Shown: positions 1-61,520 of the stretch, one piece after another
Layout of the letters: each line of letters starts with the position of its first letter
How positions within the stretch are numbered: the stretch's first letter is position 1
Source of the DNA: the human T2T-CHM13v2.0 reference genome, Homo sapiens
DNA: 64,000 bases
Reading direction: 5' to 3'
Assembly (NCBI GenBank): GCA_009914755.4
Contig: CP068257.2
Coordinates: 8,192,001 to 8,256,000 of the forward strand
The notes under the pieces: generated by a model
What the model was told of the DNA's origin: nothing
What the model saw: the letters and a program-made list of their open reading frames with translations, nothing else
The model's database searches: none
Position numbers and translations under genes: made by a program

Positions 1-52
1 GCTTCTGTCTAGTTTTTATGTGAATATATTTCCTTTTCCACTATAGGCCGTC
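1..52. repeat. 3' end of a preceding HOR copy (partial)
   Basis: Sequence 1-52 matches the last ~52 bp preceding the phase point in every other copy (e.g. 16657-16708). Confidence 0.8.
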
Positions 53-3000
53 ATGCGCTCCAAATATCCACTTGCAGATTCTACAAAAAGACTGTTTCCA
101 AACTGCTCAATCAAAAGAAAAGCTCAACTCTGTGAGTTGAATGAGCACATCACAAAGAAGTTTCTCAGAATGCTTCTATCTAGTTTTTATGTGAATATAT
201 TTCCTTTTCCACCACAGGCCACAAACCCTCCAAATATCCACTTGAAGATTCTACAAAAAGAGTGCTTCAAAAATACTCAATCAAAAGAAAGGTTCAACTC
301 TTCGAGATGGACGCACACATCACAAAGAAGCTTCTCAGAATGTTTCTGTCTAGTTTTTTTGTGAAGATATTTCCTTTTCCACTGAAGTCCTCAAGTCTCT
401 CCAACTATCTACTTTCAGAATCTCCAAAAAGAGTGTTTTAAATCTGCTGTACCAAAGAAAGTTTCATGTCTGAGATATGACTGCATACAACACAGAGAAC
501 TTTCTCAAAGTGCTTCTGTTTATTTTTCTTATGAAGATATTTCCTTTTCCACTATGGGCCACAGAGCGCTCCAAATATCCACTGGCAGATTCTACAAAAA
601 GAGTGTTTCAAAACTGCTCAATCAATAGAAAGTTTGAAGTCTGTGAGATGAATGTGCACATCACAAAGGAGTTTCTAAGAATGCTTCCATCTGAATTTTA
701 TGTGAGGATATTTCCTTTTTCACCATAGGCCTCAATACACTCCAAATATCCATTTACAGATAATACAAATGACTGTATCCAAACTGCTCAATCAAAAGAA
801 AGTTCAACTGTGCATGATGAATGCACACATCACAAGGGTGTTTCTCAGAAAGATTTTGTCTTGTTTTTAGGTGAAGATATTTCTTATTTCCCCAGAGGCC
901 TCAATGGGCTCTCAAATATTCCCTTTCATATTCTACTAAATGACTGTATCGAAGCTGCTCAATCAAAAGACGGGTTTAACAGTGTGAGACGAAAATACAC
1001 CTTCCTAGGAAGTTTCTCAGAATTCTTCTTTCTAGTTTTTTATGTGAAGATATTTCCTTTTCCACTATAGGCCTCAAAGCGTTCCAAATATCCAATTGCA
1101 GATACTACAAATAGAGCGTTTCAAAACTGCTCAATCAAAAGAAAGGTTCAACTCTGTGAGATGAATGCAGACATCAAAAAGAAGTTTCTCAGAATGCTTC
1201 CGCCTTGTTTTTATGTGAAGATATTTCCTTTTTCACCATAGGCCTCAAAGCACTGGTAATATCCATTTGTAGATACTACAAAAAGACTGTTCCCAAACTG
1301 CTCAATAAAAAGAAAGTTTCAACTCTATGAGATAAAAGCTAATATCACAAAGAAGTTTCTCAGAAACTTTCTATCTAGTTTTTATGTGAACATATTTCTT
1401 ATCACCCCATAGACCTCAATCGGCTCACAAGTATCCTTCTGCAGATTGTAAAAAACTACTGTTTCCAAACCGCTCAATCACAGGAAAGGTTTAACTCTGT
1501 GAAATGAATGCATCCATCACAGAGAAGTTTCTCAGAATGCTTCCGTCTCGTTTTCATGTGAAGAAGATTCCTTTTCCACCATATTCCTCATGCGCTCCAA
1601 ATAAACACTTGCAGATTCCGCTAAAAGAGTGTTTCAAAACTGCTCAATCAAAAGAAAGGTTCTAGTCGGTGAGATGAATGCACACATCACAAAGAAGTTT
1701 CTATGAATGCTTCTGTCTGATTTATATTGAAGATATTTCCTTTTTAACCGTAGGCCTCAGAGTGCTTAAAATATCCATTTGCAGATACTAGAAAAGACTG
1801 TTTCCAAACTGCTCAATCAAAATAAAGTTCAACTCAGTGAGATGAATGCACACATCACCAAGACGTTTCTGAGAAAGATTCTGTCTCGTTTTTATGTGAA
1901 GATATTTCCTGTTTCTCCAGAGGCATCAATGGGCTCACAAACATTCCTTTGCTATTCTACAAAATGACTGTTTAGAAGGTGCTCAATCAAAAAAAAAGTT
2001 CAACAGTGTGAGATGAATGCGCCCATTCAAAGGAAGTTTCTCAGAATTCTTCTATCTAGTTTTTATGTGAAGATATTTCCTTTTTCACTATAGGCCACAA
2101 AGTGCTCCAAATATCCACTTGCAGACTCTACAAAACGAGTGTATCCACACTGCTCAATCAAAAGAAAATTTCAACTGTGTGAGATGAATGCACACATCAA
2201 AATAAATTTCTCCAAAACTTCTGCCTACTTTTTATGGGAAGATATTTCGTTTTTCAACGTAGGCCAAAAGCACTCCAAATATCAATTTGCAGATTCTACA
2301 AAAAGACTGTTTCCAAACTGCTCAATCAACAGAAAGTTTCAACCCGGTGAGTAGAAGTCACACATGACAAAATAGTTTCTCAGAAGGTATCTGTCTAGTT
2401 TTTATGTGAAGATATTTCCTATCACCCCAGAAGCCTCAATGGGCTCACAAATATTCCTTTGCAGATTCTACAAAACGACAGTTTCAAAACTGCTGAATCA
2501 AAAGAAAGGTTCAACTCTGTGAGATGAATGCACAGATCACAAATAAGTTTCTCAGAATGCTGCTGTCTAGTTTTTATGGGAAGAGATTTCCTTTTCCACC
2601 ATAGGCCTCAAAGCTCTCCAAATAGCCATTTGCAGATACTGTAAAAAGACTGTTTCCAAACTGCTGAATCAAAAGAAAGGTTGAACTCCATGAGTTGAAT
2701 GCACACGTCACAAAGAAGTTTCTCAGAATGCTTCTGACTAGTTTTTATGTGAAGATATTTTCTTTTCCACCATAGGCCTCAAAGCGCTGAAAATATCCAC
2801 TTGAAGATTCTACAGAAAGAGAGTTTCAAAACTGCTCAAACAAAAGAAAGATTCAACTCTGTGAGATGAATGCACACATCACAAAGAAGTTTCTCAGAAT
2901 GCTTCTGTCTAGTTTTATGTAAAGATATTTCCTTTTCTACTATAGGCCACAAAGCATTCCAAATATCAACTTGCAGATTCTGCAGAAAGAGTTTTTCAAA

Positions 3001-3966
3001 GCTGCTCAATCAAAAGAAAAGTTCAACTCTTTGAGATGAATGCACACATCATGAAGTTCCTCAGAATGCTTCTATTTTTATGTGAAGATATATCCTTTTC
3101 TACCATAGACCACAAAACTCTCCAAATATCCCCTTGCAGTTTCTACTAAAAGAGTGTTTCCAAACTGCTCAATCAAAAGAAAGTTTCAACTCTGTGAGAT
3201 GAATGCACACATCATTAAGAAGTTTCTCAGTAATTTTCTGTCTAGTTTTTATGTGAAGATATTTCCTTTCCTACTATAGGCCTGAAAGTGCTGCAAATAT
3301 CCGTTTGCAGATACTGCAAAAAGACTGTTTCCACACTGCTCAATCAAAGGAAATGTCCAACTCTGTGAGTTGAATGCACGCATCTCAAAGAGATTACTTA
3401 TAATGATTCTGTCTAGTTTTGATGTGAAGATATTTGCTTTTCCACCAGTGGCCTCAAACTCTCCAAATATCCACTTGCAGATTCTACAATAAGAGTGTTT
3501 CAAAACTGCTCAATCAAAAGAAAGGTTCAACACTGTGAGATGAATGCACACGTCACAAAGCACTTTCTTAGAATGCTTCTGTCTAGCTTTTATGTGAAGA
3601 TATTTCCTTTTTCACCATAGGCTGCAAAGCGCTCCAAATATCCCTTTCAGATTCTACAGAAAGAGTGTTTCAAAACTGTTCAATCAAAAGAGAAACTCAA
3701 CACTGGTGATGAATGCACGCATCACAAAGCAGTTTCTCATAATGTTTCTGTCTAGTTTTTATGTGAAGATATTTCATTCTCCACTATAGGCCGTAATGCA
3801 CTCCTAATATCCACTTGCAGATTCTACAAAAAGACTGTTTGCAAACTGCTCAAACAAAAGAAAAGTTCAACTCTGTGAGTTGAATGAGCACATCACAAAG
3901 AAGTTTCTCAGAATGCTTCTGTCTAGTTTTTATGTGAATATATTTCCTTTTCCACTATAGGCCGTC
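53..3966. repeat. HOR copy 1, 23-mer, 3914 bp, haplotype I
   Basis: Copy defined from the 'atgcgctccaaatatccac' phase point at 53 to the next at 3967. The variant set matches copies 5, 6 and 9 (e.g. '…caaaaatactcaatc…', 'ttctcttatgaag'). Confidence 0.85.
2588..2604. other. Example pJalpha-type motif (ttccttttccaccatag; consensus TTCCTTTTYCACCRTAG) occupying the monomer position where CENP-B boxes occur in B-box-containing alpha satellite
   Basis: Exact 17-bp match to the pJalpha consensus. Similar or identical motifs recur in about half of the monomers of each HOR copy. No CENP-B box (TCCCGYTTCCAACGAAR in this orientation) is found in the window. Confidence 0.6.
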
Positions 3967-6900
3967 ATGCGCTCCAAATATCCACTTGCAGATTCTACAA
4001 AAAGACTGATTCCAAACTGCTCAATCAAAAGAAAAGCTCAACTCTGTGAATTGAATGAGCACATCACAAAGAAGTTTCTCAGAATGCTTCTATCTCGTTT
4101 TTATGTGAATATATTTCCTTTTCCACCACAGGCCACAAACACTCCAAATATCCACTTGAAGATTCTACAAAAAGAGTGCTTCAAAAATGCTCAATCAAAA
4201 GAAAGGTTCAACTCTTTGAGATGGATGCACACATCACAAAGAAGCTTCTCAGAATGTTTCTGTCTAGTTTTTTTGTGAAGATATTTCCTTTTCCACCGTA
4301 GTCCTCAAGTCTCTCCAAATATCTACTTTCAGAATCTCCAAAAAGAGTGTTTTAAAACTGCTGTACCAAAGAAAGTTTCATGTCTGAGATATGACTGCAT
4401 ACAACACAGAGAAGTTTCTCAAAGTGCTTCTGTTTATTTTTTTTATGAAGATATTTCCTTTTCCACTATGGGCCACAGAGCGCTCCAAATATCGACTTGC
4501 AGATTCTACAAAAAGAGTGTTTCAAAACTGCTCAATCAATAGAAAGTTTGAAGTCTGTGAGATGAATGCACACATCACAAAGGAGTTTCTAAGAATGCTT
4601 CCATCTGAATTTTATGTGAGGATATTTCCTTTTTCACCATAGGCCTCAGTACACTCCAAATATCCATTTACAGATAATACAAATGACTGTATCCAAACTG
4701 CTCAATCAAAAGAAAGTTCAACTGTGTATGATGAAGGCACACATCACAAGGCTGTTTCTCAGAAAGATTTTGTCTAGTTTTTAGGTGAAGATATTTCTTA
4801 TTTCCCCAGAGGCCTCAATGGGCTCTCAAATATTCCCTTTCATATTCTACTAAATGACTGTATCGAAGCTGCTCAATCAAAAGACGGGTTTAACAGTGTG
4901 AGACGAAAATACACCTTCCTAGGAAGTTTCTCAGAATTCTTCTTTCTAGTTTTTTATGTGAAGATATTTCCTTTTCCACTATAGGCCTCAAAGCGTTCCA
5001 AATATCCACTTGCAGATACCACAAATAGAGCGTTTCAAAACTGCTCAATCAAAAGAAAGGTTCAACTCTGTGAGATGAATGCAGACATCAAAAAGAAGTT
5101 TCTCAGAATGCTTCCGCCTAGTTTTTATGTGAAGATATTTCCTTTTTAACCATAGGCCTCAAAGCACTGGTAATATCCATTTGCAGATACTACAAAAAGA
5201 CTGTTCCCAAACTGCTCAATAAAAAGAAAGTTTCAACTCTATGAGATAAAAGCAAATATCACAAAGAAGTTTCTCAGAAACTTTCTATCTAGTTTTTATG
5301 TGAACATATTTCTTATCACCCCATAGACCTCAATCGGCTCACAAGTATCCTTCTGCAGATTGTAAAAAACTACTGTTTCCAAACCGCTCAATCACAGGAA
5401 AGGTTTAACTCTGTGAAATGAATGCATCCATCACAGAGAAGTTTCTCAGAATGCTTCCGTCTCGTTTTCATGTGAAGAAGATTCCTTTTCCACCATATTC
5501 CTCATGCGCTCCAAATAAACACTTGCAGATTCCGCTAAAAGAGTGTTTCAAAACTGCTCAACCAAAAGAAAGGTTCTAGTCGGTGAGATGAATGCACACA
5601 TCACAAAGAAGTTTCTATGAATGCTTCTGTCTGATTTATATTGAAGATATTTCCTTTTTCACCGTAGGCCTCAGAGTGCTTAAAATATCCATTTGCAGAT
5701 ACTAGAAAAGACTGTTTCCAAACTGCTCAATCAAAATAAAGTTCAACTCAGTGAGATGAATGCACACATCACCAAGACGTTTCTGAGAAAGATTCTGTCC
5801 CGTTTTTATGTGAAGATATTTCCTGTTTCCCCAGAGGCATCAATGGGCTCACAAATATTCCTTTGCATATTCTACAAAATGACTGTTTAGAAGGTGCTCA
5901 ATCAAAAAAAAAGTTCAACAGTGTGAGATGAATGCGCCCATTCAAAGGAAGTGTCTCAGAATTCTTCTATCTAGTTTTTATGTGAAGATATTTCCTTTTT
6001 CATTATAGGCCACAAAGTGCTCCAAATATCCACTTGCAGACTCTACGAAACGAGTGTATCCACACTGCTCAAACAAAAGAAAATTTCAACTGTTTGAGAT
6101 GAATGCACACATCAAAATAAATTTCTCCAAAACTTCTGCCTACTTTTTATGGGAAGATATTTCGTTTTTCAACGTAGGCCAAAAGCACTCCAAATATCAA
6201 TTTGCAGATTCTACAAAAAGACTGTTTCCAAACTGCTCAATCAACAGAAAGTTTCAACCCGGTGAGTAGAAGTCACACATGACAAAATAGTTTCTCAGAA
6301 AGTATCTGTCTAGTTTTTACGTGAAGATATTTCCTATCACCCCAGAAGCCTCAATGGGCTCACAAATATTCCTTTGCAGATTCTACAAAAAGGCAGTTTC
6401 AAAACTGCTGAATCAAAAGAAAGGTTCAACTCTGGGAGATGAATGCACAGATCACAAATAAGTTCCTCAGAATGCTGCTGCCTAGTTTTAATGGGAAGAG
6501 ATTTCCTTTTCCACCATAGGCCTCAAAGCTCTCCAAATAGCCATTTGCAGATACTGTAAAAAGACTGTTTCCAAACTGCTGAATCAAAAGAAAGGTTGAA
6601 CTCCATGAGTTGAATGCACACGTCATAAAGAAGTTTCTCAGAATGGTTCTGACTAGTTTTTATGTGAAGATATTTTCTTTTCCACCATAGGCCTCAAAGC
6701 GCTGAAAATATCCACTTGAAGATTCTACAGAAAGAGAGTTTCAAAACTGCTCAAACAAAAGAAAGATTCAACTCTGTGAGATGAATGCACACATCACAAA
6801 GAAGTTTCTCAGAATGCTTCTGTCTAGTTTTATGTAAAGATATTTCCTTTTCTACTCTAGGCCACAAAGCACTCCAAATATCAACTTGCAGATTCTGCAG

Positions 6901-8213
6901 AAAGAGTTTTTCAAAGCTGCTCAATCAAAAGAAAAGTTCAACTCCTTGAGATGAATGCACACATCATGAAGTTCCTCAGAATGCTTCTATTTTTATGTGA
7001 AGACATATCCTTTTCTACCATAGACCACAAAACGCTCCAAATATCCCCTTGCAGTTTCTACTAAAATAGTGTTTCCAAACGGCTCAATCAAAAGAAAGTT
7101 TCAACTTTGTGAGATGAATGCACACATCACAAAGAAGTTTCTCAGAATGCTTCTGTCTAGTTTTATGTAAAGATATTTCCTTTTCTACTATAGGCCACAA
7201 AGCACTCCAAATATCAACTTGCAGATTCTGCAGAAAGAGTTTTTCAAAGCTGCTCAATCAAAAGAAAAGTTAAACTCTTTGAGATGAATGCACACATCAT
7301 GAAGTTCCTCAGAATGCTTCTATTTTTATGTGAAGATATATCCTTTTCTACCATAGACCACAAAACGCTCCAAATATCCCCTTGCAGTTTCTACTAAAAG
7401 AGTGTTTCCAAACGGCTCAATCAAAAGAAAGTTTCAACTCTGTGAGATGAATGCACACAACATTAAGTAGTGTCTCAGTAATTTTCTGTCTAGTTTTTAT
7501 GTGAAGATATTTCCTTTCCTACTATAGGCCTGAAAGTGCTGCAAATATCCGTTTGCAGATACTGCAAAAAGACTGTTTCCACACTGCTCAATCAAAGGAA
7601 ATGTCCAACTCTGTGAGTTGAATGCACGCATCTCAAAGAGATTACTTCTAATGATTCTGTCTAGTTTTGATGTGAAGATATTTGCTTTTCCACCAGTGGC
7701 CTCAAACTCTCCAAATATCCACTTGCAGATTCTACAATAAGAGTGTTTCAAAACTGCTCAATCAAAGAAAGGTTCAACACTGTGAGATGAATGCACACGT
7801 CACAAAGCACTTTCTTAGAATGCTTCTGTCTAGCTTTTATGTGAAGATATTTCCTTTTTCACCATAGGCTGCAAAGCGCTCCAAATATCCCTTTCAGATT
7901 CTACAGAAAGAGTATTTCAAAACTGTTCAATCAAAAGAGAAACTCAACTCTGGTGATGAATGCACGCATCACAAAGCAGTTTCTCATAATGTTTCTGTCT
8001 AGTTTTTATGTGAAGATATTTCATTCTCCACTATAGGCCGTAATGCACTCCTAATATCCACTTGCAGATTCTACAAAAAGACTGTTTGCAAACTGCTCAA
8101 ACAAAAGAAAAGTTCAACTCTGTGAGTTGAATGAGCACATCACAAAGAAGTTTCTCAGAATGCTTCTGTCTAGTTTTTATGTGAATATATTTCCTTTTCC
8201 ACTATAGGCCATC
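3967..8213. repeat. HOR copy 2, 25-mer, 4247 bp (dimer duplication), haplotype II' (shares variants with edge copies 13-16)
   Basis: Phase point to phase point is 4247 bp. It contains two tandem 333-bp dimer units (6778-7443). SNVs such as 'caaacactccaaat' and 'ctttgagatggatgcac' are shared with copies 13-16. Confidence 0.85.
6778..7443. repeat. Tandem duplication of 333-bp alpha-satellite dimer (units 6778-7110 and 7111-7443) defining the 25-mer HOR variant; same event at 11025-11690, 15272-15937, 19520-20185
   Basis: The 'gagatgaatgcacacatcacaaagaagtttctcagaatgcttctgtctagttttatgtaaag…' unit starts at 6778, 7111 and 7444. In 23-mer copies the corresponding interval (e.g. 2863-3195) has one unit only. 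The two units differ at about 5 positions. Confidence 0.85.
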
Positions 8214-11200: not shown

Positions 11201-12460
11201 AATGCACACATCATGAAGTTCCTCAGAATGCTTCTATTTTTATGTGAAGACATATCCTTTTCTACCATAGACCACAAAACGCTCCAAATATCCCCTTGCA
11301 GTTTCTACTAAAATAGTGTTTCCAAACGGCTCAATCAAAAGAAAGTTTCAACTTTGTGAGATGAATGCACACATCACAAAGAAGTTTCTCAGAATGCTTC
11401 TGTCTAGTTTTATGTAAAGATATTTCCTTTTCTACTATAGGCCACAAAGCACTCCAAATATCAACTTGCAGATTCTGCAGAAAGAGTTTTTCAAAGCTGC
11501 TCAATCAAAAGAAAAGTTAAACTCTTTGAGATGAATGCACACATCATGAAGTTCCTCAGAATGCTTCTATTTTTATGTGAAGATATATCCTTTTCTACCA
11601 TAGACCACAAAACGCTCCAAATATCCCCTTGCAGTTTCTACTAAAAGAGTGTTTCCAAACGGCTCAATCAAAAGAAAGTTTCAACTCTGTGAGATGAATG
11701 CACACAACATTAAGTAGTGTCTCAGTAATTTTCTGTCTAGTTTTTATGTGAAGATATTTCCTTTCCTACTATAGGCCTGAAAGTGCTGCAAATATCCGTT
11801 TGCAGATACTGCAAAAAGACTGTTTCCACACTGCTCAATCAAAGGAAATGTCCAACTCTGTGAGTTGAATGCACGCATCTCAAAGAGATTACTTCTAATG
11901 ATTCTGTCTAGTTTTGATGTGAAGATATTTGCTTTTCCACCAGTGGCCTCAAACTCTCCAAATATCCACTTGCAGATTCTACAATAAGAGTGTTTCAAAA
12001 CTGCTCAATCAAAGAAAGGTTCAACACTGTGAGATGAATGCACACGTCACAAAGCACTTTCTTAGAATGCTTCTGTCTAGCTTTTATGTGAAGATATTTC
12101 CTTTTTCACCATAGGCTGCAAAGCGCTCCAAATATCCCTTTCAGATTCTACAGAAAGAGTATTTCAAAACTGTTCAATCAAAAGAGAAACTCAACTCTGG
12201 TGATGAATGCACGCATCACAAAGCAGTTTCTCATAATGTTTCTGTCTAGTTTTTATGTGAAGATATTTCATTCTCCACTATAGGCCGTAATGCACTCCTA
12301 ATATCCACTTGCAGATTCTACAAAAAGACTGTTTGCAAACTGCTCAAACAAAAGAAAAGTTCAACTCTGTGAGTTGAATGAGCACATCACAAAGAAGTTT
12401 CTCAGAATGCTTCTGTCTAGTTTTTATGTGAATATATTTCCTTTTCCACTATAGGCCATC
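8214..12460. repeat. HOR copy 3, 25-mer, 4247 bp, haplotype II
   Basis: 4247-bp period; essentially identical to copy 4. Confidence 0.85.
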
Positions 12461-47400: not shown

Positions 47401-48356
47401 ATCAAAAGAAAAGTTCAACTCTTTGAGATGAATGCACACATCATGAAGTTCCTCAGAATGCTTCTATTTTTATGTGAAGATATATCCTTTTCTACCATAG
47501 ACCACAAAACGCTCCAAATATCCCCTTGCAGTTTCTACTAAAAGAGTGTTTCCAAACGGCTCAATCAAAAGAAGTTTCAACTCTGTGAGATGAATGCACA
47601 CATCATTAAGAAGTTTCTCAGTAATTTTCTGTCTAGTTTTTATGTGAAGATATTTCCTTTCCTACTATAGGCCTGAAAGTGCTCCAAATATCCGTTAGCA
47701 GATACTGCAAAAAGACTGTTTCCAAACTGCTCAATCAAAGGAAATGTCCAACTCTGTGAGTTGAATGCACGCATCTCAAAGAGATTACTTATAATGATTC
47801 TGTCTAGTTTTGATGTGAAGATATTTGCTTTTCCACCAGTGGCCTCAAACTCTCCAAATATCCACTTGCAGATTCTACAATAAGAGTGTTTCAAAACTGC
47901 TCAATCAAAAGAAAGGTTCAACACTGTGAGATGAATGCACACGTCACAAAGCACTTTCTTAGAATGCTTCTGTCTAGCTTATATGTGAAGATATTTCTTT
48001 TTCACCATAGGCTGCAAAGCGCTCCAAATATCCCTTTCAGATTCTACAGAAAGAGTGTTTCAAAACTGTTCAATCAAAAGAGAAATTCAACTCTGGTGAT
48101 GAATGCACGCATCACAAAGCAGTTTCTCATAATGTTTCTGTCTAGTTTTTATGTGAAGATATTTCATTTTCCACTATAGGCCGTAATGCACTCCTAATAT
48201 CCACTTGCAGATTCTACAGAAAGACTGTTTGCAAACTGCTCAAACAAAAGAAAAGTTCAACTCTGTGAGTTGAATGAGCACATCACAAAGAAGTTTCTCA
48301 GAATGCTTCTGTCTAGTTTTTATGTGAATATATTTCCTTTTCTACTACAGGCCGTA
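44445..48356. repeat. HOR copy 12, 23-mer, ~3912 bp, divergent haplotype III derivative
   Basis: 3912-bp period with multiple private SNVs or small indels relative to copies 7-10. Confidence 0.8.
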
Positions 48357-51300: not shown

Positions 51301-53975
51301 TCCCAAACTGCTCAATAAAAAGAAAGTTTCAACTCTATGAGATAAAAGCAAATATCACAAAGAAGTTTCTCAGAAACTTTCTATCTAGTTTTTATGTGAA
51401 CATATTTCTTATCACCCCATAGACCTCAATCGGCTCACAAGTATCCTTCTGCAGATTGTAAAAAACTACTGTTTCCAAACCGCTCAATCACAGGAAAGGT
51501 TTAACTCTGTGAAATGAATGCATCCATCACAGAGAAGTTTCTCAGAATGCTTCCGTCTCGTTTTTATGTGAAGAAGATTCCTTTTCCACCATATTCCTCA
51601 TGCGCTCCAAAGAAACACTTGCAGATTCCGCTAAAAGAGTGTTTCAAAACTGCTCAATCAAAAGACAGGTTCTAGTCGGTGAGATGAATGCACACATCAC
51701 AAAGACGTTTCTATGAATGCTTCTGTCTGATTTATATTGAAGATATTTCCTTTTTCACCGTAGGCCTCAGAGTGCTTAAAATATCCATTTGCAGATACTA
51801 GAAAAGACTGTTTCCAAACTGCTCAATCAAAATAAAGTTCAACTCAGTGAGATGAATGCACACATCACCAAGACGATTCTGACAAAGATTCTGTCTCGTT
51901 TTTATGTGAAGATATTTCCTGTTTCCCCAGAGGCATCAATGGGCTCACAAATATTCCTTTGCATATTCTACAAAATGACTGTTTAGAAGGTGCTGAATCA
52001 AAAAAAAAGTTCAACAGTGTGAGATGAATGCGCCCATTCAACGGAAGTTTCTCAGAATTCTTCTATCTAGTTTTTATGTGAAGATATTTCCTTTTTCACT
52101 ATAGGCCAGAAAGTGCTCCAAATATCCACTTGCAGACTCTACAAAACGAGTGTATCCACACTGCTCAATCAAAAGAAAATTTCAACTGTGTGAGATGAAT
52201 GCACACATCAAAATAAATTTCTCCAAAACTTCTGCCTACTTTTTATGGGAAGATATTTCGTTTTTCAACGTAGGCCAGAAGCACTCCAAATATCAATTTG
52301 CAGATTCTACAAAAAGACTGTTTCCAAACTGCTCAATCAAGAGAAAGTTTCAACCTGGTGAGTAGAAGTCACACATGACAAAATAGTTTCTCAGAAAGTA
52401 TCTGTCTAGTTTTTATGTGAAGATATTTCCTATCACCCCAGAAGCCTCAATGGGCTCACAAATATTCCTTTGCAGATTCTACAAAACGACAGTTTCAAAA
52501 CTGCTGAATCAAAAGAAAGGTTCAACTCTGTGAGATGAATGCACAGATCACAAATAAGTTTCTCAGAATGCTGCTTTCTAGTTTTTATGGGAAGATATTT
52601 CCTTTCCCACCATAGGCCTCAAAGCTCTCCAAATAGCCATTTGCAGATACTGTAAAAAGACTGTTTCCAAACTGCTGTATCAAAAGAAAGGTTGAACTCC
52701 ATGAGTTGAATGCACACGTCACAAAGAAGTTTCTCAGAATGCTTCTGACTAGTTTTTATGTGAAGATATTTTCTTTTCCACAGTAGGCCTCAAAGCGCTG
52801 AAAATATCCACTTGAAGATTCTACAAATGAGAGTTTCAAAACTGCTCAAACAAAAGAAAGATTCAACTCTGTGAGATGAATGCACACATCACAAAGAAGT
52901 TTCTCAGAATGCTTCTGTCTAGTTTTATGTAAAGATATTTCCTTTTCTACTATAGGCCACAAAGCACTCCAAATATCAACTTGCAGATTCTGCAGAAAGA
53001 GTTTTTCAAAGCTGCTCAATCAAAAGAAAAGTTCAACTCTTTGAGATGAATGCACACATCAGGAAGTTCCTCAGAATGCTTCTATTTTTATGTGAAGATA
53101 TAGCCTTTTCTACCATAGACGACAAAACGCTCCAAATATCCCCTTGCAGTTTCTACTAAAAGAGTGTTTCCAAACTGCTCAATCAAAAGAAGTTTCAACT
53201 CTGTGAGATGAATGCACTCATCAATAAGAAGTTTCTCAGTAATTTTCTGTCTAGTTTTTATGTGAAGATATTTCCTTTCCTACTATAGGCCTGAAAGTGC
53301 TCCAAATATCCGTTTGCAGATACTGCAAAAAGACTGTTTCCAAACTGCTCAATCAAAGGAAATGTCCAAATCTGTGAGTTGAATGCACGCATCTCAAAGA
53401 GATTACTCATAATGATTCTGTCTAGTTTTGATGTGAAGATATTTGCTTTTCCACCAGTGGCCTCAAACTCTCCAAATATCCACTTGCAGATTCTACAATA
53501 AGAGTGTTTCAAAACTGCTCAATCAAAAGAAAGGTTCAACACTGTGAGATGAATGCACACGTCACAAAGCACTTTCTTAGAATGCTTCTGTCTAGCTTTT
53601 ATGTGAAGATATTTCCTTTTTCACCATAGGCTGCAAAGCGCTCCAAATATCCCTTTCAGATTCTACAGAAAGAGTGTTTCAAAACTGTTCAATCAAAAGA
53701 GAAACTCAACTCTGGTGATGAATGCACGCATCACAAAGCAGTTTCTCATAATGTTTCTGTCTAGTTTTTATGTGAAGATATTTCATTTTCCACTATAGGC
53801 CGTAATGCACTCCTAATATCCACTTGCAGATTCTACAGAAAGACTGTTTGCAAACTGCTCAAACAAAAGAAAAGTTCAGCTCTGTGAGTTGAATGAGCAC
53901 ATCACAAAGAAGTTTCTCAGAATGCTTCTGTCTAGTTTTTATGTGAATATATTTCCTTTTCCACTATAGGCCGTA
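48357..53975. repeat. HOR copy 13, expanded to ~5619 bp (33 monomers) by internal 10-monomer tandem duplication; edge haplotype IV
   Basis: Phase point at 48357, next at 53976. The D and E monomer ORFs occur twice, 1706 bp apart (50083/51789 and 50444/52150). Confidence 0.85.
49351..52762. repeat. Near-identical tandem duplication of a ~1.7 kb 10-monomer block within HOR copy 13 (first copy ~49351-51062, second ~51063-52762)
   Basis: After the F-region monomer (…gcttctgactagtttttatgtg), the sequence at ~51060 jumps back to the monomer normally following C ('aagatatttccttttccactataggcctcaaagcgttccaaatatccacttgcagaaactac'). The D and E ORF peptides are duplicated identically, and I noticed only one SNV between the two copies. 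Confidence 0.8.
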
Positions 53976-56900
53976 ATGCGCTCCAAATATCCACCTGCAG
54001 ATTCTACAAAAAGACCGTTTCCAAAGTGCTCAATCAAAAGAAAAGTTCAACTCTGTGAGTTGAATGAGCACATCACAAAGAAGTTTCTCACAATGCTTCT
54101 ATCTAGTTTTTATGTGAATATATTCCCTTTTCCACCACAGGCCACAAACACTCCAAATATCCACTTGAAGATTCTACAAAAAGAGTGCTTCAAAAATGCT
54201 CAATCAAAAGAAAGGTTCAACTCTTTGAGATGGATGCACACATCACAAAGAAGCTTCTCAGAATGTTCCTGTCTAGTTTTTTTGTGAAGATATTTCCTTT
54301 TCCACCGTAGTCCTCAAGTCTCTCCAAATATCTACTTTCAGCATCTCCAAAAAGAGTGTTTTAAAACTGCTGTACCAAAGAAAGTTTCGTGTCTGAGATA
54401 TGACTGCATACAACACAGAGAAGTTTCTCAAAGTGCTTCTGTTTATTTTTTTTATGAAGATATTTCCTTTTCCACTATGGGCCACAGAGCGCTCCAAATA
54501 TTCACTGGCAGATTCTACAAAAAGAGTGTTTCAAAACTGCTCAATCAATAGAAAGTTTGAAGTCTGTGAGATGAATGCACACATCACAAAGGAGTTTCTA
54601 AGAATGCTTCCATCTGAATTTTATGTGAGGATATTTCCTTTTTCACCATAGGCCTCAATACACTCCAAATATCCATTTACAGATAATACAAATGACTGTA
54701 TCCAAACTGCTCAATCAAAAGAAAGTTCAACTGTGTATGATGAATGCACACATCACAAGGGTGTTTCTCAGAAAGTTTTTGTCTAGCTTTTAGGTGAAGA
54801 TATTTCTTATTTCCCCAGAGGTCTCAATGGGCTCTCAAATATTCCCTTTCATATTCTACTAAATGACTGTATCGAAGCTGCTCAATCAAAAGACGGGTTT
54901 AACAGTGTGAGACGAAAATACACCTTCCTAGGAAGTTTCTCAGAATTCTTCTGTCTAGTTTTTTATGTGAAGATATTTCCTTTTCCACTATAGGCCTCAA
55001 AGCGTTCCAAATATCCACTTGCAGATACTACAAATAGAGCGTTTCAAAACTGCTCAATCAAAAGAAAGGTTCAACTCTGTGAGATGAATGCAGACATCAA
55101 AAAGAAGTTTCTCAGAATGCTTCTGCCTTGTTTTTATGTGAAGATATTTCCTTTTTCACCATAGGCCTCAAAGCACTGGTAATATCCATTTGGAGATACT
55201 ACAAAAAGACTGTTCCCAAACTGCTCAATAAAAAGAAAGTTTCAACTCTATGAGATAAAAGCAAATATCACAAAGAAGTTTCTCAGAAAATTTCTATCTA
55301 GTTTTTATGTGAACATATTTCTTATCACCCCATAGACCTCAATCGGCTCACAAGTATCCTTCTGCAGATTGTAAAAAACTACTGTTTCCAAACCGCTCAA
55401 TCACAGGAAAGGTTTAACTCTGTGAAATGAATGCATCCATCACAGAGAAGTTTCTAAGAATGCTTCCGTCTCGTTTTTATGTGAAGAAGATTCCTTTTCC
55501 ACCATATTCCTCATGCGCTCCAAAGAAACACTTGCAGATTCCGCTAAAAGAGTGTTTCAAAACTGCTCAATCAAAAGAAAGGTTCTAGTCGGTGAGATGA
55601 ATGCACACATCACAAAGACGTTTCTATGAATGCTTCTGTCTGATTTATATTGAAGATATTTCCTTTTTCACCGTAGGCCTCAGAGTGCTTAAAATATCCA
55701 TTTGCAGATACTAGAAAAGACTGTTTCCAAACTGCTCAATCAAAATAAAGTTCAACTCAGTGAGATGAATGCACACATCACCAAGACGTTTCTGAGAAAG
55801 ATTCTGTCTCGTTTTTATGTGAAGATATTTCCTGTTTCCCCAGAGGCATCAATGGGCTCACAAATATTCCTTTGCATATTCTACAAAATGACTGTTTAGA
55901 AGGTGCTCAATCAAAAAAAAAGTTCAACAGTGTGAGATGAATGCGCCCATTCAACGGAAGTTTCTCAGAATTCTTCTATCTAGTTTTTATGTGAAGATAT
56001 TTCCTTTTTCACTATAGGCCACAAAGTGCTCCAAATATCCACTTGCAGACTCTACAAAACGAGTGTATCCACACTGCTCAATCAAAAGAAAATTTCAACT
56101 GTGTGAGATGAATGCACACATCAAAATAAATTTCTCCAAAACTTCTGCCTACTTTTTATGGGAAGATATTTCGTTTTTCAACGTAGGCCAAAAGCACTCC
56201 AAATATCAATTTGCAGATTCTACAAAAAGACTGTTTCCAAACTGCTCAATCAAGAGAAAGTTTCAACCTGGTGAGTAGAAGTCACACATGACAAAATAGT
56301 TTCTCAGAAAGTATCTGTCTAGTTTTTATGTGAAGATATTTCCTATCACCCCAGAAGCCTCAATGGGCTCACAAATATTCCTTTGCAGATTCTACAAAAC
56401 GACAGTTTCAAAACTGCTGAATCAAAAGAAAGGTTCAACTCTGTGAGATGAATGCACAGATCACAAATAAGTTTCTCAAAATGCTGCTGTCTAGTTTTTA
56501 TGGGAAGATATTTCCTTTCCCACCATAGGCCTCAAAGCTCTCCAAATAGCCATTTGCAGATACTGTAAAAAGACTGTTTCCAAACTGCTGTATCAAAAGA
56601 AAGGTTGAACTCCATGAGTTGAATGCACACGTCACAAAGAAGTTTCTCAGAATGCTTCTGACTAGTTTTTATGTGAAGATATTTTCTTTTCCACAGTAGG
56701 CCTCAAAGCGCTGAAAATATCCACTTGAAGATTCTACAAATGAGAGTTTCAAAACTGCTCAAACAAAAGAAAGATTCAACTCTGTGAGATGAATGCACAC
56801 ATCACAAAGAAGTTTCTCAGAATGCTTCTGTCTAGTTTTATGTAAAGATATTTCCTTTTCTACTATAGGCCACAAAGCACTCCAAATATCAACTTGCAGA

Positions 56901-57888
56901 TTCTGCAGAAAGAGTTTTTCAAAGCTGCTCAATCAAAAGAAAAGTTCAACTCTTTGAGATGAATGTACACATCAGGAAGTTCCTCAGAATGCTTCTATTT
57001 TTATGTGAAGATATAGCCTTTTCTACCATAGACCACAAAACGCTCCAAATATCCCCTTGCAGTTTCTACTAAAAGAGTGTTTCCAAACTGCTCAATCAAA
57101 AGAAGTTTCAACTCTGTGAGATGAATGCACTCATCAATAAGAAGTTTTTCAGTAATTTTCTGTCTAGTTTTTATGTGAAGATATTTCCTTTCCTACTATA
57201 GGCCTGAAAGTGCTCCAAATATCCGTTTGCAGATACTGCAAAAAGACTGTTTCCAAACTGCTCAATCAAAGGAAATGTCCAACTCTGTGAGTTGAATGCA
57301 CGCATCTCAAAGAGATTACTCATAATGATTCTGTCTAGTTTTGATGTGAAGATATTTGCTTTTCCACCAGTGGCCTCAAACTCTCCAAATATCCACTTGC
57401 AGATTCTACAATAAGAGTGTTTCAAAACTGCTCAATCAAAAGAAAGGTTCAACACTGTGAGATGAATGCACACGTCACAAAGCACTTTCTTAGAATGCTT
57501 CTGTCTAGCTTTTATTTGAAGATATTTCCTTTTTCACCATAGGCTGCAAAGCGCTCCAAATATCCCTTTCAGATTCTACAGAGAGAGTGTTTCAAAACTG
57601 TTCAATCAAAAGAGAAATTCAACTCTGGTGATGAATGCACGCATCACAGAGCAGTTTCTCATAATGTTTCTGTCTATTTTTTATGTGAAGTTATTTCATT
57701 TTCCACTATAGGCCGTAATGCACTCCTAATATCCACTTGCAGATTCTACAAAAAGACTGTTTGCAAACTGCTCAAACAAAAGAAAAGTTCAACTCTGTGA
57801 GTTGAATGAGCACATCACAAAGAAGTTTCTCAGAATGCTTCTGTCTAGTTTTTATGTGAATATATTTCCTTTTCCACTATAGGCCGTA
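53976..57888. repeat. HOR copy 14, 23-mer, 3913 bp, edge haplotype IV
   Basis: 3913-bp period; shares 'ccacctgcag', 'caaacactcc', 'gagatggatgcac' variants with copies 2, 13 and 16. Confidence 0.85.
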
Positions 57889-57984
57889 ATGTGCTCCAAA
57901 TATCCACCTGCAGATTCTACAAAAAGACTGTTTCCAAAGTGCTCAATCAAAAGAAAAGTTCAACTCTGTGAGATGAATGAGCAC

Positions 57985-58000
57985 ATCACAAAGAAGCTTC
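57985..58000. other. In-register deletion junction removing one ~170-bp monomer (fusion of HOR monomers 1 and 2)
   Basis: Before the junction the sequence follows monomer 1 (…gagcacatcacaaagaag). It then continues as monomer 2 (cttctcagaatgtttctgtctagtttttttgtg…). Compare copy 14 at 54060-54260. Confidence 0.7.
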
Positions 58001-60539
58001 TCAGAATGTTTCTGTCTAGTTTTTTTGTGGAGATATTTCCTTTTCCACCGTAGTCCTCAAGTCTCTCCAAATACCTACTTTCAGAATCTCCAAAAAGAGT
58101 GTTTTAAAACTGCTGTACCAAAGAAAGTTTCATGTCTGAGTTATGACTGCATACAACACAGAGAAGTTTCTCAAAGTGCTTCTGTTTATTTTTTTTATGA
58201 AGATATTTCCTTTTCCACTATTGGCCACAGAGCGCTCCAAATATCCACTGGCAGATTCTACAAAAAGAGTGTTTCAAAACTGCTCAATCAATAGAAAGTT
58301 TGAAGTCTGTGAGATGAATGCACACATCACAAAGGAGTTTCTAAGAATGCTTCCATCTGAATTTTATGTGAGGATATTTCCTTTTTCACCATAGGCCTCA
58401 GTACACTCCAAATATCCATTTACAGATAATACAAATGACTGTATCCAAACTGCTCAATCAAAAGAAAGTTCAACTGTGTATGATGAATGCACAAATCACA
58501 ATGGTGTTTCTCAGAAAGTTTTTGTCTAGTTTTTAGGTGAAGATATTTCTTATTTCCCCAGAGGCCTCAATGGGCTCTCAAATATTCCCTTTCATATTCT
58601 ACTAAATGACTGTATCGAAGCTGCTCAATCAAAAGACGGGTTTAACAGTGTGAGACGAAAATACACCTTCCTAGGATGTTTCTCAGAATTCTTCTTTCTA
58701 GTTTTTTATGTGAAGATATTTCCTTTTCCACTATAGGCCTCAAAGCGTTCCAAATATCCACTTGCAGATACTACAAATAGAGCGTTTCAAAACTGCTCAA
58801 TCAAAAGAAAGGTTCAACTCTGCGAGATGAATGCAGACATCAAAAAGAAGTTTCTCAGAATGCTTCTGCCTTGTTTTTATGTGAAGATATTTCCTTTTTC
58901 AAAATAGGCCTCAAAGCACTGGTAATATCCATTTGCAGATACTACAAAAAGACTGTTCCCAAACTGCTCAATAAAAAGAAAGTTTCAACTCTAGCAGATA
59001 AAAGCAAATATCACAAAGAAGTTTCTCAGAAACTTTCTATCTATTTTTTATGTGAACATATTTCTTATCACCCCATAGACCTCAATCGGCTCACAAGTAT
59101 CCTTCTGTAGATTATGAAAAACTACTGTTTCCAAACCGCTCAATCACAGGAAAGGTTTAACTCTGTGAAATGAATGCATCCATCACAGAGAAGTTTCTCA
59201 GAATGCTTCCGTCTCGTTTTTATGTGAAGAAGATTCCTTTTCCACCATATTCCTCATGCGCTCCAAATAAACACTTGCAGATTCCGCTAAAAGAGTGTTT
59301 CAAAACTGCTCAATCAAAAGAAAGGTTCTAGTCGGTGAGATGAATGTACACATCCCAAAGAAGTTTCTATGAATGCTTCTGTCTGATTTATATTGAAGAT
59401 ATTTCCTTTTTCACCGTAGGCCTCAGAGTGCTTAAAATATCCATTTGCAGATACTAGAAAAGACTGTTTCCAAACTGCTCAATCAAAATAAAGTTCAACT
59501 CAGTGAGATGAATGCACACATCACCAAGACGTTTCTGAGAAAGATTCTGTCTCGTTTTTATGTGAAGATATTTCCTGTTTCCCCAGAGGCATCAATGGGC
59601 TCACAAATATTCCTTTGCATATTCTACAAAATGACTGTTTAGAAGGTGCTCAATCAAAAAAAAAGTTCAACAGTGTGAGATGAATGCGCCCATTCAAAGG
59701 AAGTTTCTCAGAATTCTTCTATCTAGTTTTTATGTGAAGATATTTCCTTTTTCACTATAGGCCACAAAGTGCTCCAAATATCCACTTGCAGACTCTGCAA
59801 AACGAGTGTATCCACACTGCTCAATCAAAAGAAAATTTCAACTGTGTGAGATGAATGCACACATCAAAATAAATTTCTCCAAAACTTCTGCCTACTTTTT
59901 ATGGGAAGATATTTCGTTTTTCAACGTAGGCCAAAAGCACTCCAAATATCAATTTGCAGATTCTACAAAAAGACTGTTTCCAAACTGCTCAATCAAGAGA
60001 AAGTTTCAACCCGGTGAGTAGAAGTCACACATGACAAAATAGTTTCTCAGAAAGTATCTGTCTAGTTTTTATGTGAAGATATTTCCTATCACCCCAGAAG
60101 CCTCAATGGGCTCACAAATATTCCTTTGCAGATTCTACAAAACGACAGTTTCAAAACTGCTGAATCAAGAGAAAGGTTCAACTCTGTGAGATGAATGCGC
60201 AGATCACAAATAAGTTTCTCAGAATGCTGCTGTCTAGTTTTTATGGGAAGATATTTCCTTTTCCACCATAGGCCTCAAAGCTCTCCAAATATCCATCTGC
60301 AGATACTGTAAAAAGACTGTTTCCAAACTGCTGAATCAAAAGAAAGGTTGAACTCCATGAGTTGAATGCACACGTCACAAAGAAGTTTCTCAGAATGCTT
60401 CTGACTAGTTTTTATGTGTAGATATTTTCTTTTCCACCATAGGCCTCAAAGCGCTGAAAATATCCACTTGAAGATTCTACAGAAAGAGAGTTTCAAAACT
60501 GGTCAAACAAAAGAATGATTCAACTCTGTGAGATGAATG

Positions 60540-60555
60540 CACACTTCACAAAGCA
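60540..60555. other. In-register deletion junction removing ~672 bp (4 monomers, including the dimer unit and the following two monomers)
   Basis: '…gatgaatgcacacttcacaaag' joins directly to 'cactttcttagaatgcttctgtctagcttttat', which normally lies 4 monomers downstream (compare 56790-57500). Confidence 0.7.
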
Positions 60556-60959
60556 CTTTCTTAGAATGCTTCTGTCTAGCTTTTATTTGAAGATATTTCC
60601 TTTTTCACCATAGGCTGCAAAGCACTCCAAATATCCCTTTCAGATTCTACAGAGAGAGTGTTTCAAAACTGTTCAATCAAAAGAGAAATTCAACTCTGGT
60701 GATGAATGCACGCATCACAGAGCAGTTTCTCATAATGTTTCTGTCTATTTTTTATGTGAAGTTATTTCATTTTCCACTATAGGCCGTAATGCACTCCTAA
60801 TATCCACTTGCAGATTCTACAAAAAGACTGTTTGCAAACTGCTCAAACAAAAGAAAAGTTCAACTCTGTGAGTTGAATGAGCACATCACAAAGAAGTTTC
60901 TCAGAATGCTTCTGTCTAGTTTTTATGTGAATATATTTCCTTTTCCACTATAGGCCGTA

Positions 60960-61520
60960 ATGCGCTCCAAATATCCACCTGCAGATTCTACAAAAAGACT
61001 GTTTCCAAACTGCTCAATCAAAAGAAAAGTTCAACTCTGTGAGATGAATGAGCACATCACAAAGAAGTTTCTCAGAATGCTTCTATCTAGTTTTTATGTG
61101 AATATATTTCCTTTTCCACCACAGGCCACAAACACTCCAAATATCCACTTGAAGATTCTACAAAAAGAGTGCTTCAAAAATGCTCAATCAAAAGAAAGGT
61201 TCAACTCTTTGAGATGGATGCACACATCACAAAGAAGCTTCTCAGAATGTTTCTGTCTAGTTTTTTTGTGAAGATATTTCCTTTTCCACCGTAGTCCTCA
61301 AGTCTCTCCAAATATCTACTTTCAGAATCTCCAAAAAGAGTGTTTTAAAACTGCTGTACCAAAGAAAGTTTCATGTCTGAGATATGACTGCATACAACAC
61401 AGAGAAGTTTCTCAAAGTGCTTCTGTTTATTTTTTTTATGAAGATATTTCCTTTTCCACTATGGGCCACAGAGCGCTCCAAATATCCACTTGCAGATTCT
61501 ACAAAAAGAGTGTTTCAAAC
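60960..61520. repeat. HOR copy 16 (partial, first ~3.3 monomers) ending at array boundary
   Basis: Matches the first ~560 bp of the HOR unit, then homology to the HOR is lost at ~61515-61525. Confidence 0.8.

What the first reader, a model, noticed from the sequence alone, without database searches (positions are those of the whole stretch)
1..61520. CENP-B-box-free 23-mer alpha-satellite HOR array of unassigned identity
The array is built from a 23-monomer unit of ~3.9 kb with ~99% copy identity. I find no CENP-B box in any of roughly 370 monomers. The only 'caacg' is in a degenerate 'atttcgtttttcaacgtagg' monomer that lacks the essential CCCG. The pJalpha motif instead occupies that position in many monomers. 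In humans the only active centromeric array without B-boxes is DYZ3 on the Y chromosome, but its unit is a 34-mer (~5.7 kb), which this is not. B-box-free HORs are otherwise SF4/SF5-type, pericentromeric or inactive arrays, or non-human ape arrays. I do not recognise the unit, so its assignment is open.
Basis: partly seen in the sequence, partly recalled or inferred. Interest (0 to 1): 0.55.

Follow-up and report, generated by a model that had tools for sequence, protein, structure and literature searches.

The report
Known inactive chromosome-21 alpha-satellite array
This is an already catalogued, inactive alpha-satellite repeat array (S4/6C13/14/21H1) on the short arm of human chromosome 21, so the missing CENP-B boxes are expected and the finding is ordinary.

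Summary
Window 1 to about 61,520 is an alpha-satellite higher-order repeat (HOR) with a 23-monomer unit of 3,914-3,915 bp. Copies are on average 98.2% identical to each other (adjacent copies 98.9%). No CENP-B box occurs on either strand. Every monomer has an A-type (pJalpha-like) site or a decayed version of one.

The "unassigned identity" is resolved. All 23 monomers match, one-to-one and in order, the published consensus of the T2T-CHM13 chromosome 21 "23/25mer" array, with 0-2 substitutions each. The order of 23-, 25- and 33-monomer copies and the array end also match the published coordinates to within 2 bp. The window therefore corresponds to CHM13 chr21:~8,192,167-8,256,166.

The T2T centromere annotation calls this array S4/6C13/14/21H1. 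It is a 23-mer of suprachromosomal families 4/6, shared by chromosomes 13, 14 and 21, classed as a "pseudo"-centromere, with 1,125 CENP-A reads against 1.57 million for the live array. Shepelev et al. equate its hg38 model with D21Z5/pTRA-2.

It is not DYZ3 and not an ape array. Hybrid monomers at the junctions of three structural variants show that the array evolves by in-register unequal exchange. Novelty: already known. Interest: low.

The parts
1..61520 (-). Alpha-satellite HOR array S4/6C13/14/21H1, the chr21 '23/25mer' array. Monomers lie in reverse orientation on the window + strand. The array continues off the left end of the window.
   Evidence: Monomer decomposition. One-to-one match to published consensus t1-t23. 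Coordinate anchors match CHM13 chr21. cenSat entry hor_21_1.
1..3743 (-). Copy 1, a 23-mer cut by the window start (begins at monomer A2). This is the fourth copy of the published array.
   Evidence: The published fourth-copy start maps to window 1,194; monomer H (t1) starts at 1,196.
3744..20733 (-). Four 25-monomer copies (4,247-4,248 bp) carrying a duplication of monomers R and S.
   Evidence: Matches the published '4 x 25mer' block with t11-t12 duplicated.
19720..19890 (-). Hybrid S/Q monomer at the RS-duplication junction: S-specific bases throughout, then Q-specific bases in the last ~15 nt. The first S of each 25-mer also differs from the second S at 7-10 of 171 aligned positions.
20734..48133 (-). 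Seven canonical 23-monomer copies (3,912-3,915 bp).
   Evidence: Corresponds to the published '6 x 23mer' plus the first variant copy.
48134..53752 (-). 33-monomer variant copy (5,619 bp) with monomers G-P duplicated.
   Evidence: Published copy starts 8,237,753 and 8,243,372 are exactly 5,619 bp apart.
51035..51205 (-). Hybrid Q/G monomer at the junction of the 10-monomer duplication: four Q-specific bases in the first 13 nt, then G-specific bases. Q and G are the most similar monomer pair in the unit (90%).
53753..57665 (-). Canonical 23-monomer copy.
57666..60736 (-). 18-monomer copy lacking B (published t18) and R-U (published t11-t14).
   Evidence: Same deletions as published.
60397..60567 (-). 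Hybrid Q/U monomer at the R-U deletion junction: Q-specific bases, then U-specific bases in the last ~20 nt.
60737..61520 (-). Terminal part-copy: A1 A2 B C plus about 100 bp of D. This is the proximal end of the array.
   Evidence: The published array end 8,253,585 maps to window 61,419.
61521..64000 (-). Flanking monomeric (non-HOR) alpha satellite: about 14 unique A-type monomers, 74-88% identical to each other. This is the start of cenSat block mon_21_2.
   Evidence: SF6 (Ha) is recorded in the paralogous blocks mon_13_1, mon_13_2 and mon_14_9.

Best explanation
The window is the proximal ~61.5 kb of the ~72.7-kb alpha-satellite HOR array S4/6C13/14/21H1 on the short arm of human chromosome 21, plus 2.5 kb of the monomeric alpha satellite next to it. 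It corresponds to T2T-CHM13 v2 chr21:~8,192,167-8,256,166 and lies about 2.7 Mb distal to the active centromere array.

It is a 'pseudocentromere'. A 23-monomer stretch of old, A-type (SF4/SF6) alpha satellite was amplified inside a dead monomeric layer. It has been kept homogeneous and reshaped by in-register unequal homologous exchange between similar monomers. That part is shown here by hybrid monomers at three structural-variant junctions.

The array is shared with chromosomes 13 and 14 as part of the large duplicated segment that acrocentric short arms exchange. Its place inside that segment is inferred from the published annotation.

Because its progenitor monomers are A-type, it never had CENP-B boxes. 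By published CENP-A read counts it carries essentially no CENP-A, so it does not act as a centromere and is packaged as short-arm heterochromatin. The last step is inferred.
For: Sequence identity:
- All 23 published monomer types of the CHM13 chr21 23/25mer consensus (PMC12385485, Table S2) map one-to-one and in order onto the window's monomers.
- Each differs by 0-2 substitutions. The second-best monomer matches at 91% or less.

Structure:
- The copy order matches the published description: 23, 4x25, 23-mers, a 13-monomer skip, loss of t18, loss of t11-t14, and an end after t19.
- Four coordinate anchors agree to within 2 bp with a single offset of +8,192,166.
- The 5,619-bp step agrees exactly.
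- Intra-HOR divergence agrees: published mean 20.27% and minimum 6.43%; measured here 20.3% and 5.85%.

Name and status:
- T2T Table S3 row 43 gives S4/6C13/14/21H1: chr13/14/21, SF4/6, 23 monomers, master copy of 3,915 bp, state 'pseudo'. CENP-A reads are 1,125, against 1,572,599 for S2C13/21H1L.
- cenSat places hor_21_1 (72.8 kb) between mon_21_1 and mon_21_2. The v1.0-to-v2 shift is the same as for the active array.
- Shepelev 2015 classes GJ211961.2 = GJ212124.2 as SF4+ with a 3.9-kb HOR. It is 97% identical to the BAC array at hg38 chr21:~7.97-8.04 Mb, whose intra-array identity is 98.3%. I measured 98.2% here.

A-type only.

Unequal exchange: Q/G, Q/U and S/Q hybrid monomers at variant junctions.

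Shared, inverted-on-chr14 segment: flank order in cenSat and PMC10172130.
Against: - I could not align the window to the assemblies themselves. The published consensus came through PDF-to-text conversion with letters lost in homopolymer runs (1-6 gap columns per monomer in 21 of 23).
- The link from the Gluncic array to the name S4/6C13/14/21H1 rests on coordinates, size and monomer number, not on a sequence alignment to the master HOR.
- The paralogous chr14 array (73.4 kb) could have the same internal structure, so chromosome 21 rather than 14 is likely (~85%) but not proven.
- Inactivity (CENP-A, heterochromatin) is taken from published tables for other samples and cannot be measured from sequence.
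- The old clone name is disputed: pTRA-2/D21Z5, pTRA-1/D21Z3.
Confidence: 0.95

Rival explanations
1. It is the same HOR family but from the paralogous array on chromosome 14 (or 13), or from a different human haplotype, rather than CHM13 chromosome 21.
For: cenSat lists the same HOR on chr13 (35.9 kb) and chr14 (73.4 kb). The shared 13p/14p/21p segment is more than 99% identical between chromosomes. A metagenome scaffold carrying the same HOR is only 98.5% identical to the best window copies, so other versions of the array exist.
Against: Copy order and four coordinate anchors fit the published chr21 description to within 2 bp. The CHM13 chr13 array (35.9 kb) is shorter than the 61.5 kb of array present in the window. 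The chr14 array differs in length from chr21 by about 550 bp.
Confidence: 0.12
2. It is a Y-chromosome (DYZ3-related) or non-human ape centromeric array, which is B-box-free because it is a live SF4-type centromere.
For: It is B-box-free and all A-type, as DYZ3 is. The window also contains one 33-monomer copy, close to DYZ3's 34.
Against: The unit is a 23-mer of 3.9 kb. The single 33-monomer copy is a one-off G-P duplication with a hybrid junction. DYZ3 PCR primers recalled from memory have no match within 3 mismatches. The monomers match a human chr21 consensus almost base for base. Published CENP-A reads are negligible.
Confidence: 0.01
3. It is a latent or alternative centromere ('epiallele') that can carry CENP-A in some individuals, rather than a never-functional pseudocentromere.
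For: The array is homogeneous (98-99%) and shows recent turnover. The T2T paper notes that inactive arrays can be competent for centromere function. Shepelev 2015 raises the question of transient centromere function for the analogous low-copy SF5 HORs, and of dead-centromere origin for the chr15 SF4+ arrays.
Against: There are no CENP-B boxes. From established knowledge, de novo centromere assembly on alphoid DNA requires them (Ohzeki 2002, PMC2173396, listed but not read). The array is only ~73 kb. It has 1,125 CENP-A reads against 1.57 million for the live array.
Confidence: 0.02

Closest known systems
S4/6C13/14/21H1 (T2T HOR nomenclature), equal to the CHM13 chr21 '23/25mer HOR array' of Gluncic et al. 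2025 and hg38 models GJ211961.2/GJ212124.2
   Same: 23 monomers. Unit of 3,915 bp. Monomer sequences match (0-2 substitutions each). Same 25-mer and period-33 variants, same array end, same monomeric flanks, and SF4+ A-type composition.
   Different: Nothing detected. Only the chromosome (21 versus the 14 or 13 paralogues) and the haplotype of origin remain formally open.
D21Z5 / pTRA-2 (X55367), an acrocentric alpha-satellite subfamily shared by chromosomes 13, 14 and 21
   Same: Shepelev 2015 equates it with GJ212124. It is SF4+, on the chr21 short arm, and shared among acrocentric chromosomes.
   Different: Gluncic 2019 assigns the 3.9-kb 23-mer to D21Z3/pTRA-1 instead, so the historical clone name is uncertain.
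DYZ3 (S4CYH1L), the human Y centromere HOR
   Same: SF4-type, all A-type monomers, no CENP-B boxes, long HOR unit.
   Different: DYZ3 is a 34-mer of ~5.7 kb on the Y chromosome and is the live centromere. This array is a 23-mer of 3.9 kb on acrocentric short arms and is inactive.
alpha21-II region of chromosome 21, the B-box-poor alphoid DNA distal to alpha21-I/D21Z1
   Same: Alphoid DNA on the short-arm side of the chr21 centromere that lacks regular CENP-B boxes. Shepelev cites Ziccardi's thesis on the alpha21-II region as the source for this HOR cluster.
   Different: alpha21-II is a broad region defined by mapping. Whether this particular array lies inside the originally cloned alpha21-II was not checked.

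Membership tests
Alpha satellite | Head-to-tail tandem monomers of ~171 bp that match the primate alphoid consensus | tested here: met
   376 contiguous monomers of 162-172 bp, TRF period 171 at 78% matches, nhmmer hits across the whole window.
Higher-order repeat (HOR) array | A multi-monomer unit repeated at >95% identity, while monomers within the unit differ by 20-40% | tested here: met
   Copies are 96.6-99.9% identical (mean 98.2%). Monomers within the unit are 69-94% identical (mean 79.7%).
S4/6C13/14/21H1 | 23-monomer unit of ~3,915 bp | tested here: met
   Unit of 3,914-3,915 bp with 23 monomers. The T2T master HOR chr13:16,062,740-16,066,654 spans 3,915 bp.
S4/6C13/14/21H1 | Monomer-by-monomer sequence identity to the catalogued HOR | tested here: met
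   Tested against the published CHM13 chr21 consensus: 23 of 23 monomers match in order with 0-2 substitutions each. That array is tied to the T2T name by coordinates and size. It was not aligned to the T2T HMM or master sequence itself.
S4/6C13/14/21H1 | Location on 13p/14p/21p between monomeric alpha-satellite blocks | tested here: met
   The array ends in monomeric A-type alpha satellite at 61,520. cenSat order is mon_21_1 / hor_21_1 / mon_21_2. The chromosome itself was inferred from structure, not aligned.
SF4+ (SF4/SF6) alpha satellite | All monomers are A-type (pJalpha site) and none is B-type (CENP-B box) | tested here: met
   0 CENP-B boxes. The pJalpha motif fits 19 of 23 monomer types with at most 3 mismatches, and the other four carry a decayed A-type site.
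SF4+ (SF4/SF6) alpha satellite | Monomers classify as Ga (SF4) and Ha (SF6) with the T2T or PERCON monomer models | not testable with these tools
   Class consensus sequences and HMMs are not available here. The SF4/6 label is taken from the published table.
DYZ3 (human Y centromere HOR) | 34-monomer unit of ~5.7 kb with Y-specific monomer sequences | tested here: not met
   The unit is 23 monomers and 3.9 kb. Y-alphoid primers recalled from memory have no match within 3 mismatches.
Active (live) centromeric HOR array | Regularly spaced CENP-B boxes (autosomes and X) | tested here: not met
   None in 376 monomers.
Active (live) centromeric HOR array | CENP-A enrichment or a centromere dip region | not testable with these tools
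   Published table: 1,125 CENP-A reads, state 'pseudo', against 1,572,599 reads for the live S2C13/21H1L.
D21Z5 / pTRA-2 | Sequence identity to clone X55367 | not testable with these tools
   The clone sequence is not held. The equivalence is asserted by Shepelev 2015 and contradicted by Gluncic 2019, who names pTRA-1/D21Z3.

The most novel reading that the evidence does not exclude
The array might not be inert filler. It is a homogeneous, B-box-free SF4/6 array that appears to sit inside the 13p/14p/21p pseudo-homologous segment (inverted on chr14). It could be a preferred substrate for heterologous exchange between acrocentric short arms, or an occasional alternative CENP-A site on some haplotypes. 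Nothing in this window supports that beyond evidence of recent unequal exchange within the array.
Probability: 0.04. Interest if true: 0.5.

Novelty: already known. Interest (0 to 1): 0.08.

Why it matters
It matters little as a discovery. The array is annotated in T2T-CHM13, has been modelled in hg38 since 2014, and has been described monomer by monomer.

It is a clean textbook example of two known points:
- HORs built from old A-type monomers lack CENP-B boxes and are not used as centromeres.
- HOR arrays change copy structure by unequal exchange between the most similar monomers.

The practical lesson for the scan is that 'B-box-free HOR I do not recognise' should first be checked against the roughly 50 inactive 'pseudo' HORs in the T2T catalogue, many of which lie on acrocentric short arms.

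Tried and rejected
- DYZ3: primers recalled from memory do not match the window. This is a weak test, because the primers came from memory, but it agrees with the unit size.
- Searches for T2T-style names (S4C13 and similar) returned only unrelated chemistry DOIs. One search call failed on a '/' in a term.
- Ziccardi 2016 (Chromosome Research) and the Science version of Altemose 2022 are not held. I used the bioRxiv version and its supplement instead.
- The 2019 Gluncic supplement holds only the separate 33mer HOR consensus (GJ212118/S4/6C13/14/21/22H8), not the 23-mers. I therefore could not test GJ212124 by sequence.
- Exact-protein look-ups of spurious ORFs: the first found nothing. The second found only a 683-bp metagenome scaffold, which says nothing about the chromosome.
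- The ungapped lag autocorrelation understated the HOR signal because of 1-bp indels. I replaced it with k-mer lags and monomer decomposition.
- I considered whether monomers F, I, L and O are a B-type remnant and rejected it: they have 8-10 mismatches to the full box and 4-6 to its essential bases.
Full report
**1. What is in the window**

The whole 64-kb window is alpha satellite. Composition is flat at 36-37% GC. Tandem Repeats Finder reports a single 171-bp array from 1 to 64,000. An nhmmer scan with the array's own consensus finds 376 contiguous monomers of 162-172 bp. The + strand of the window is the reverse complement of the conventional alphoid orientation.

K-mer lag analysis gives a dominant period of 3,914-3,915 bp. 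Local periods of 4,247-4,248, 5,619 and 3,743 bp also occur, and long-range repeats disappear after about 61 kb.

Clustering the monomers at 93% identity gives a unit of 23 monomers, written A1 A2 B C ... V. The window reads as follows:
- one 23-mer cut by the window start
- four 25-mers (R and S duplicated)
- seven 23-mers
- one 33-mer (G-P duplicated)
- one 23-mer
- one 18-monomer copy lacking B and R-U
- a terminal A1 A2 B C plus about 100 bp of D

The remaining 2.5 kb holds about 14 unique monomers that are 74-88% identical to each other, which is monomeric alpha satellite.

**2. Check of the observation**

HOR copies are 96.6-99.9% identical, with a mean of 98.2%. Adjacent copies average 98.9%. 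Monomers inside the unit are 69-94% identical, mean 79.7%.

The essential CENP-B box pattern NTTCGNNNNANNCGGGN has no match on either strand. No 17-mer comes within one mismatch of the nine essential bases. The only two-mismatch hits are 14 copies of one 17-mer, TTTCGTCTCACACTGTT, which does not lie at the box position.

At the box position, 19 of 23 monomer types carry the A-type pJalpha motif TTCCTTTTYCACCRTAG with at most 3 mismatches. Monomers F, I, L and O carry a decayed version, for example TTCTTATCACCCCAGAG.

'CAACG' occurs 19 times: 16 in monomer N (TTCGTTTTTCAACGTAG) and 3 in variant L monomers.

**3. Identity**

A literature search for a 23-mer alpha-satellite HOR led to Gluncic et al. 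2019 (PMC6718397) and 2025 (PMC12385485). The 2025 paper describes a '23/25mer HOR array' in T2T-CHM13 chromosome 21 from 8,180,952 to 8,253,585. Its copy order is 23, 2x25, 23, 4x25, 6x23, followed by five variant copies lacking t10-t22, t18, and t11-t14 plus t20-t23. The 25-mers duplicate t11-t12.

With t1 = H, t11 = R, t12 = S and t18 = B, this is exactly the structure seen in the window, starting from the fourth copy.

The paper's Supplementary Table S2 gives the consensus of all 23 monomer types. Aligned to my window-derived consensus monomers, t1-t23 map one-to-one and in order:
- t1-t15 = H-V, t16 = A1, t17 = A2, t18-t23 = B-G.
- Each differs by 0-2 substitutions.
- 21 of the 23 alignments also have 1-6 gap columns. 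These are letters lost from homopolymer runs in the PDF text.
- The second-best monomer always matches at 91% or less.

A single offset of +8,192,166 maps four published anchors onto the window:

| Published position | Maps to window | Observed in window |
|---|---|---|
| Fourth-copy start | 1,194 | H starts at 1,196 |
| Copy start 8,237,753 | 45,587 | H starts at 45,587 |
| Step to 8,243,372 | 5,619 bp | 5,619-bp lag |
| Array end 8,253,585 | 61,419 | last whole HOR monomer ends at 61,418 |

Published intra-HOR divergence is mean 20.27% and minimum 6.43%. Mine is 20.3% and 5.85%.

The supplement of the T2T centromere paper (bioRxiv 10.1101/2021.07.12.452052) supplies the official name. Table S3 row 43 reads:
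- name S4/6C13/14/21H1, on chr13/14/21, SF 4/6
- 23 monomers, 'straight' order
- master copy chr13:16,062,740-16,066,654 (3,915 bp)
- reference model GJ211961.2 (88,022 bp)
- state 'pseudo', 1,125 CENP-A reads, homogeneous, modern

The v1.0 cenSat table places the chr21 features as follows:
- mon_21_1 (12 kb), directly distal to the array
- hor_21_1(S4/6C13/14/21H1) at chr21:8,917,707-8,990,511 (72.8 kb)
- mon_21_2 (142.6 kb), directly proximal to the array
- active array S2C13/21H1L at 11.70-12.03 Mb, further proximal

The shift between v1.0 and the coordinates used by Gluncic is about 736.8 kb for this array and about 736.5 kb for the active array, so they are the same object.

Shepelev et al. 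2015 (PMC4496801) class GJ211961.2, which is identical to GJ212124.2 on chr21, as SF4+ with a 3.9-kb HOR. They report it as 97% identical to the array in BACs FP236243.10 and CT476838.7 at hg38 chr21:~7.97-8.04 Mb, whose intra-array identity is 98.3%. They equate GJ212124 with D21Z5/pTRA-2 (X55367). Gluncic 2019 lists the hg38 array (20 copies, unit 3,915 bp, at 7,970,290) but attributes a 3.9-kb 23-mer to D21Z3/pTRA-1. That naming conflict is unresolved.

**4. How it works**

*Shown here.* The array is built only of A-type monomers and sits directly against monomeric A-type alpha satellite.

Its structural variants are whole-monomer events, and three of the four have recombinant monomers at their junctions:
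- The 10-monomer duplication is joined by a monomer that is Q-like for its first ~13 nt and G-like afterwards. Q and G are the most similar pair in the unit, at 90%.
- The R-U deletion is joined by a Q/U hybrid.
- The first S of the 25-mer examined ends with Q-specific bases. In all four 25-mers the first S differs from the second S at 7-10 of 171 aligned positions.
- The B-deletion junction is a mosaic and is unclear.

This is the signature of in-register unequal homologous exchange, the standard mechanism for HOR expansion and homogenisation.

Copies 1 and 6, which bracket the four 25-mers, are 99.9% identical. This points to a recent multi-copy block event.

*From the literature.* The array carries about 1,400-fold fewer CENP-A reads than the live chr13/21 array, or about 190-fold fewer per base of reference model, and is classed as a pseudocentromere. 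SF4 (Ga) and SF6 (Ha) are old A-type families. The flank order is the same on chr13 and chr21 and reversed on chr14. This matches the >99%-identical 13p/14p/21p segment that is inverted on chr14 (PMC10172130).

*Inferred.* The array arose by amplification of a 23-monomer stretch of a dead SF4/SF6 layer. It spread among acrocentric short arms with that duplicated segment. It has no centromere function.

**5. Comparison and novelty**

The array is not DYZ3. The unit size differs, recalled Y primers are absent, and the single 33-monomer copy is a one-off duplication. It need not be an ape array.

It is a member of a catalogued HOR family, and all testable defining features were met. Formal Ga/Ha monomer classification, comparison with clone X55367 and chromatin state could not be tested here. 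Chromosome 21 rather than the chr14 paralogue is likely but not proven.

The finding is already known. Interest is low.

**6. Side observations**

- Monomers D-O retain an older periodicity of 3 and 6 monomers. Same-phase identity is 81.6% against 77.0% for other pairs (permutation p = 5x10^-5), and offset 6 is strongest at 83.9%.
- A1 and A2 are 94% identical, making them the youngest internal duplication in the unit.
- One spurious ORF from the array occurs on a 683-bp ENA metagenome scaffold that is 98.5% identical to the best window copies. This is presumably human DNA in that sample.

Noticed in passing
window 512-2562 and the same monomers (D-O) in every HOR copy: Inside the 23-mer, monomers D-O keep an older 3-monomer periodicity (phases D/G/J/M, E/H/K/N, F/I/L/O). 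Same-phase identity is 81.6% against 77.0% (permutation p = 5e-5) and is strongest at offset 6 (83.9%). This suggests an ancient trimer that was later duplicated as a hexamer. F, I, L and O share a distinctive decayed A-box plus CCTCAATGGGCTCAC and are 172 bp long. They may be the SF6 (Ha) component of the 'SF4/6' label.
   Followed up: partly
window 51035-51205, 60397-60567, 19720-19890 (and 57837-58007): Monomers at the junctions of the structural variants are recombinants: Q->G at the 10-monomer duplication, Q->U at the R-U deletion, and S->Q at the RS duplication. The B-deletion junction (57837-58007) is a mosaic and is unclear. This is direct evidence for in-register unequal exchange between the most similar monomers.
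   Followed up: yes
window 1-3743 versus 20734-24647: The two 23-mer copies that bracket the block of four 25-mers are 99.9% identical to each other (k-mer lag 20,904 bp). That is far closer than either is to its neighbours (98.3-99.1%), which suggests a recent multi-copy block duplication or conversion.
   Followed up: partly
window 3744-4085 (A1, A2) and every later copy: The two adjacent monomers A1 and A2 are 94% identical, much closer than any other pair in the unit. This is a relatively recent single-monomer duplication that turned a 22-mer into the 23-mer.
   Followed up: no
window 6816-7148 (R, S) and every copy: Monomer R is only 162 bp, and the next monomer S starts out of phase (AGAATGCTTCTATTTTTATG...). 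A ~9-bp deletion spans the R/S boundary and is fixed in all copies.
   Followed up: no
L001 (ENA metagenome scaffold ERZ28566469, 683 bp) versus window 24861-25543: A short metagenome scaffold carries the same HOR segment at 98.5% identity (10 mismatches in 683 bp). This is presumably human DNA in a metagenome sample, from a different copy, paralogue or haplotype.
   Followed up: partly
literature (PMC4496801 versus PMC6718397): The historical clone name for this 3.9-kb 23-mer is inconsistent. Shepelev 2015 gives D21Z5/pTRA-2 (X55367), while Gluncic 2019 gives D21Z3/pTRA-1. A figure legend in the 2019 paper also places the hg38 array (chr21:7.97 Mb) on the 'long arm', although that coordinate is on the short arm.
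   Followed up: partly
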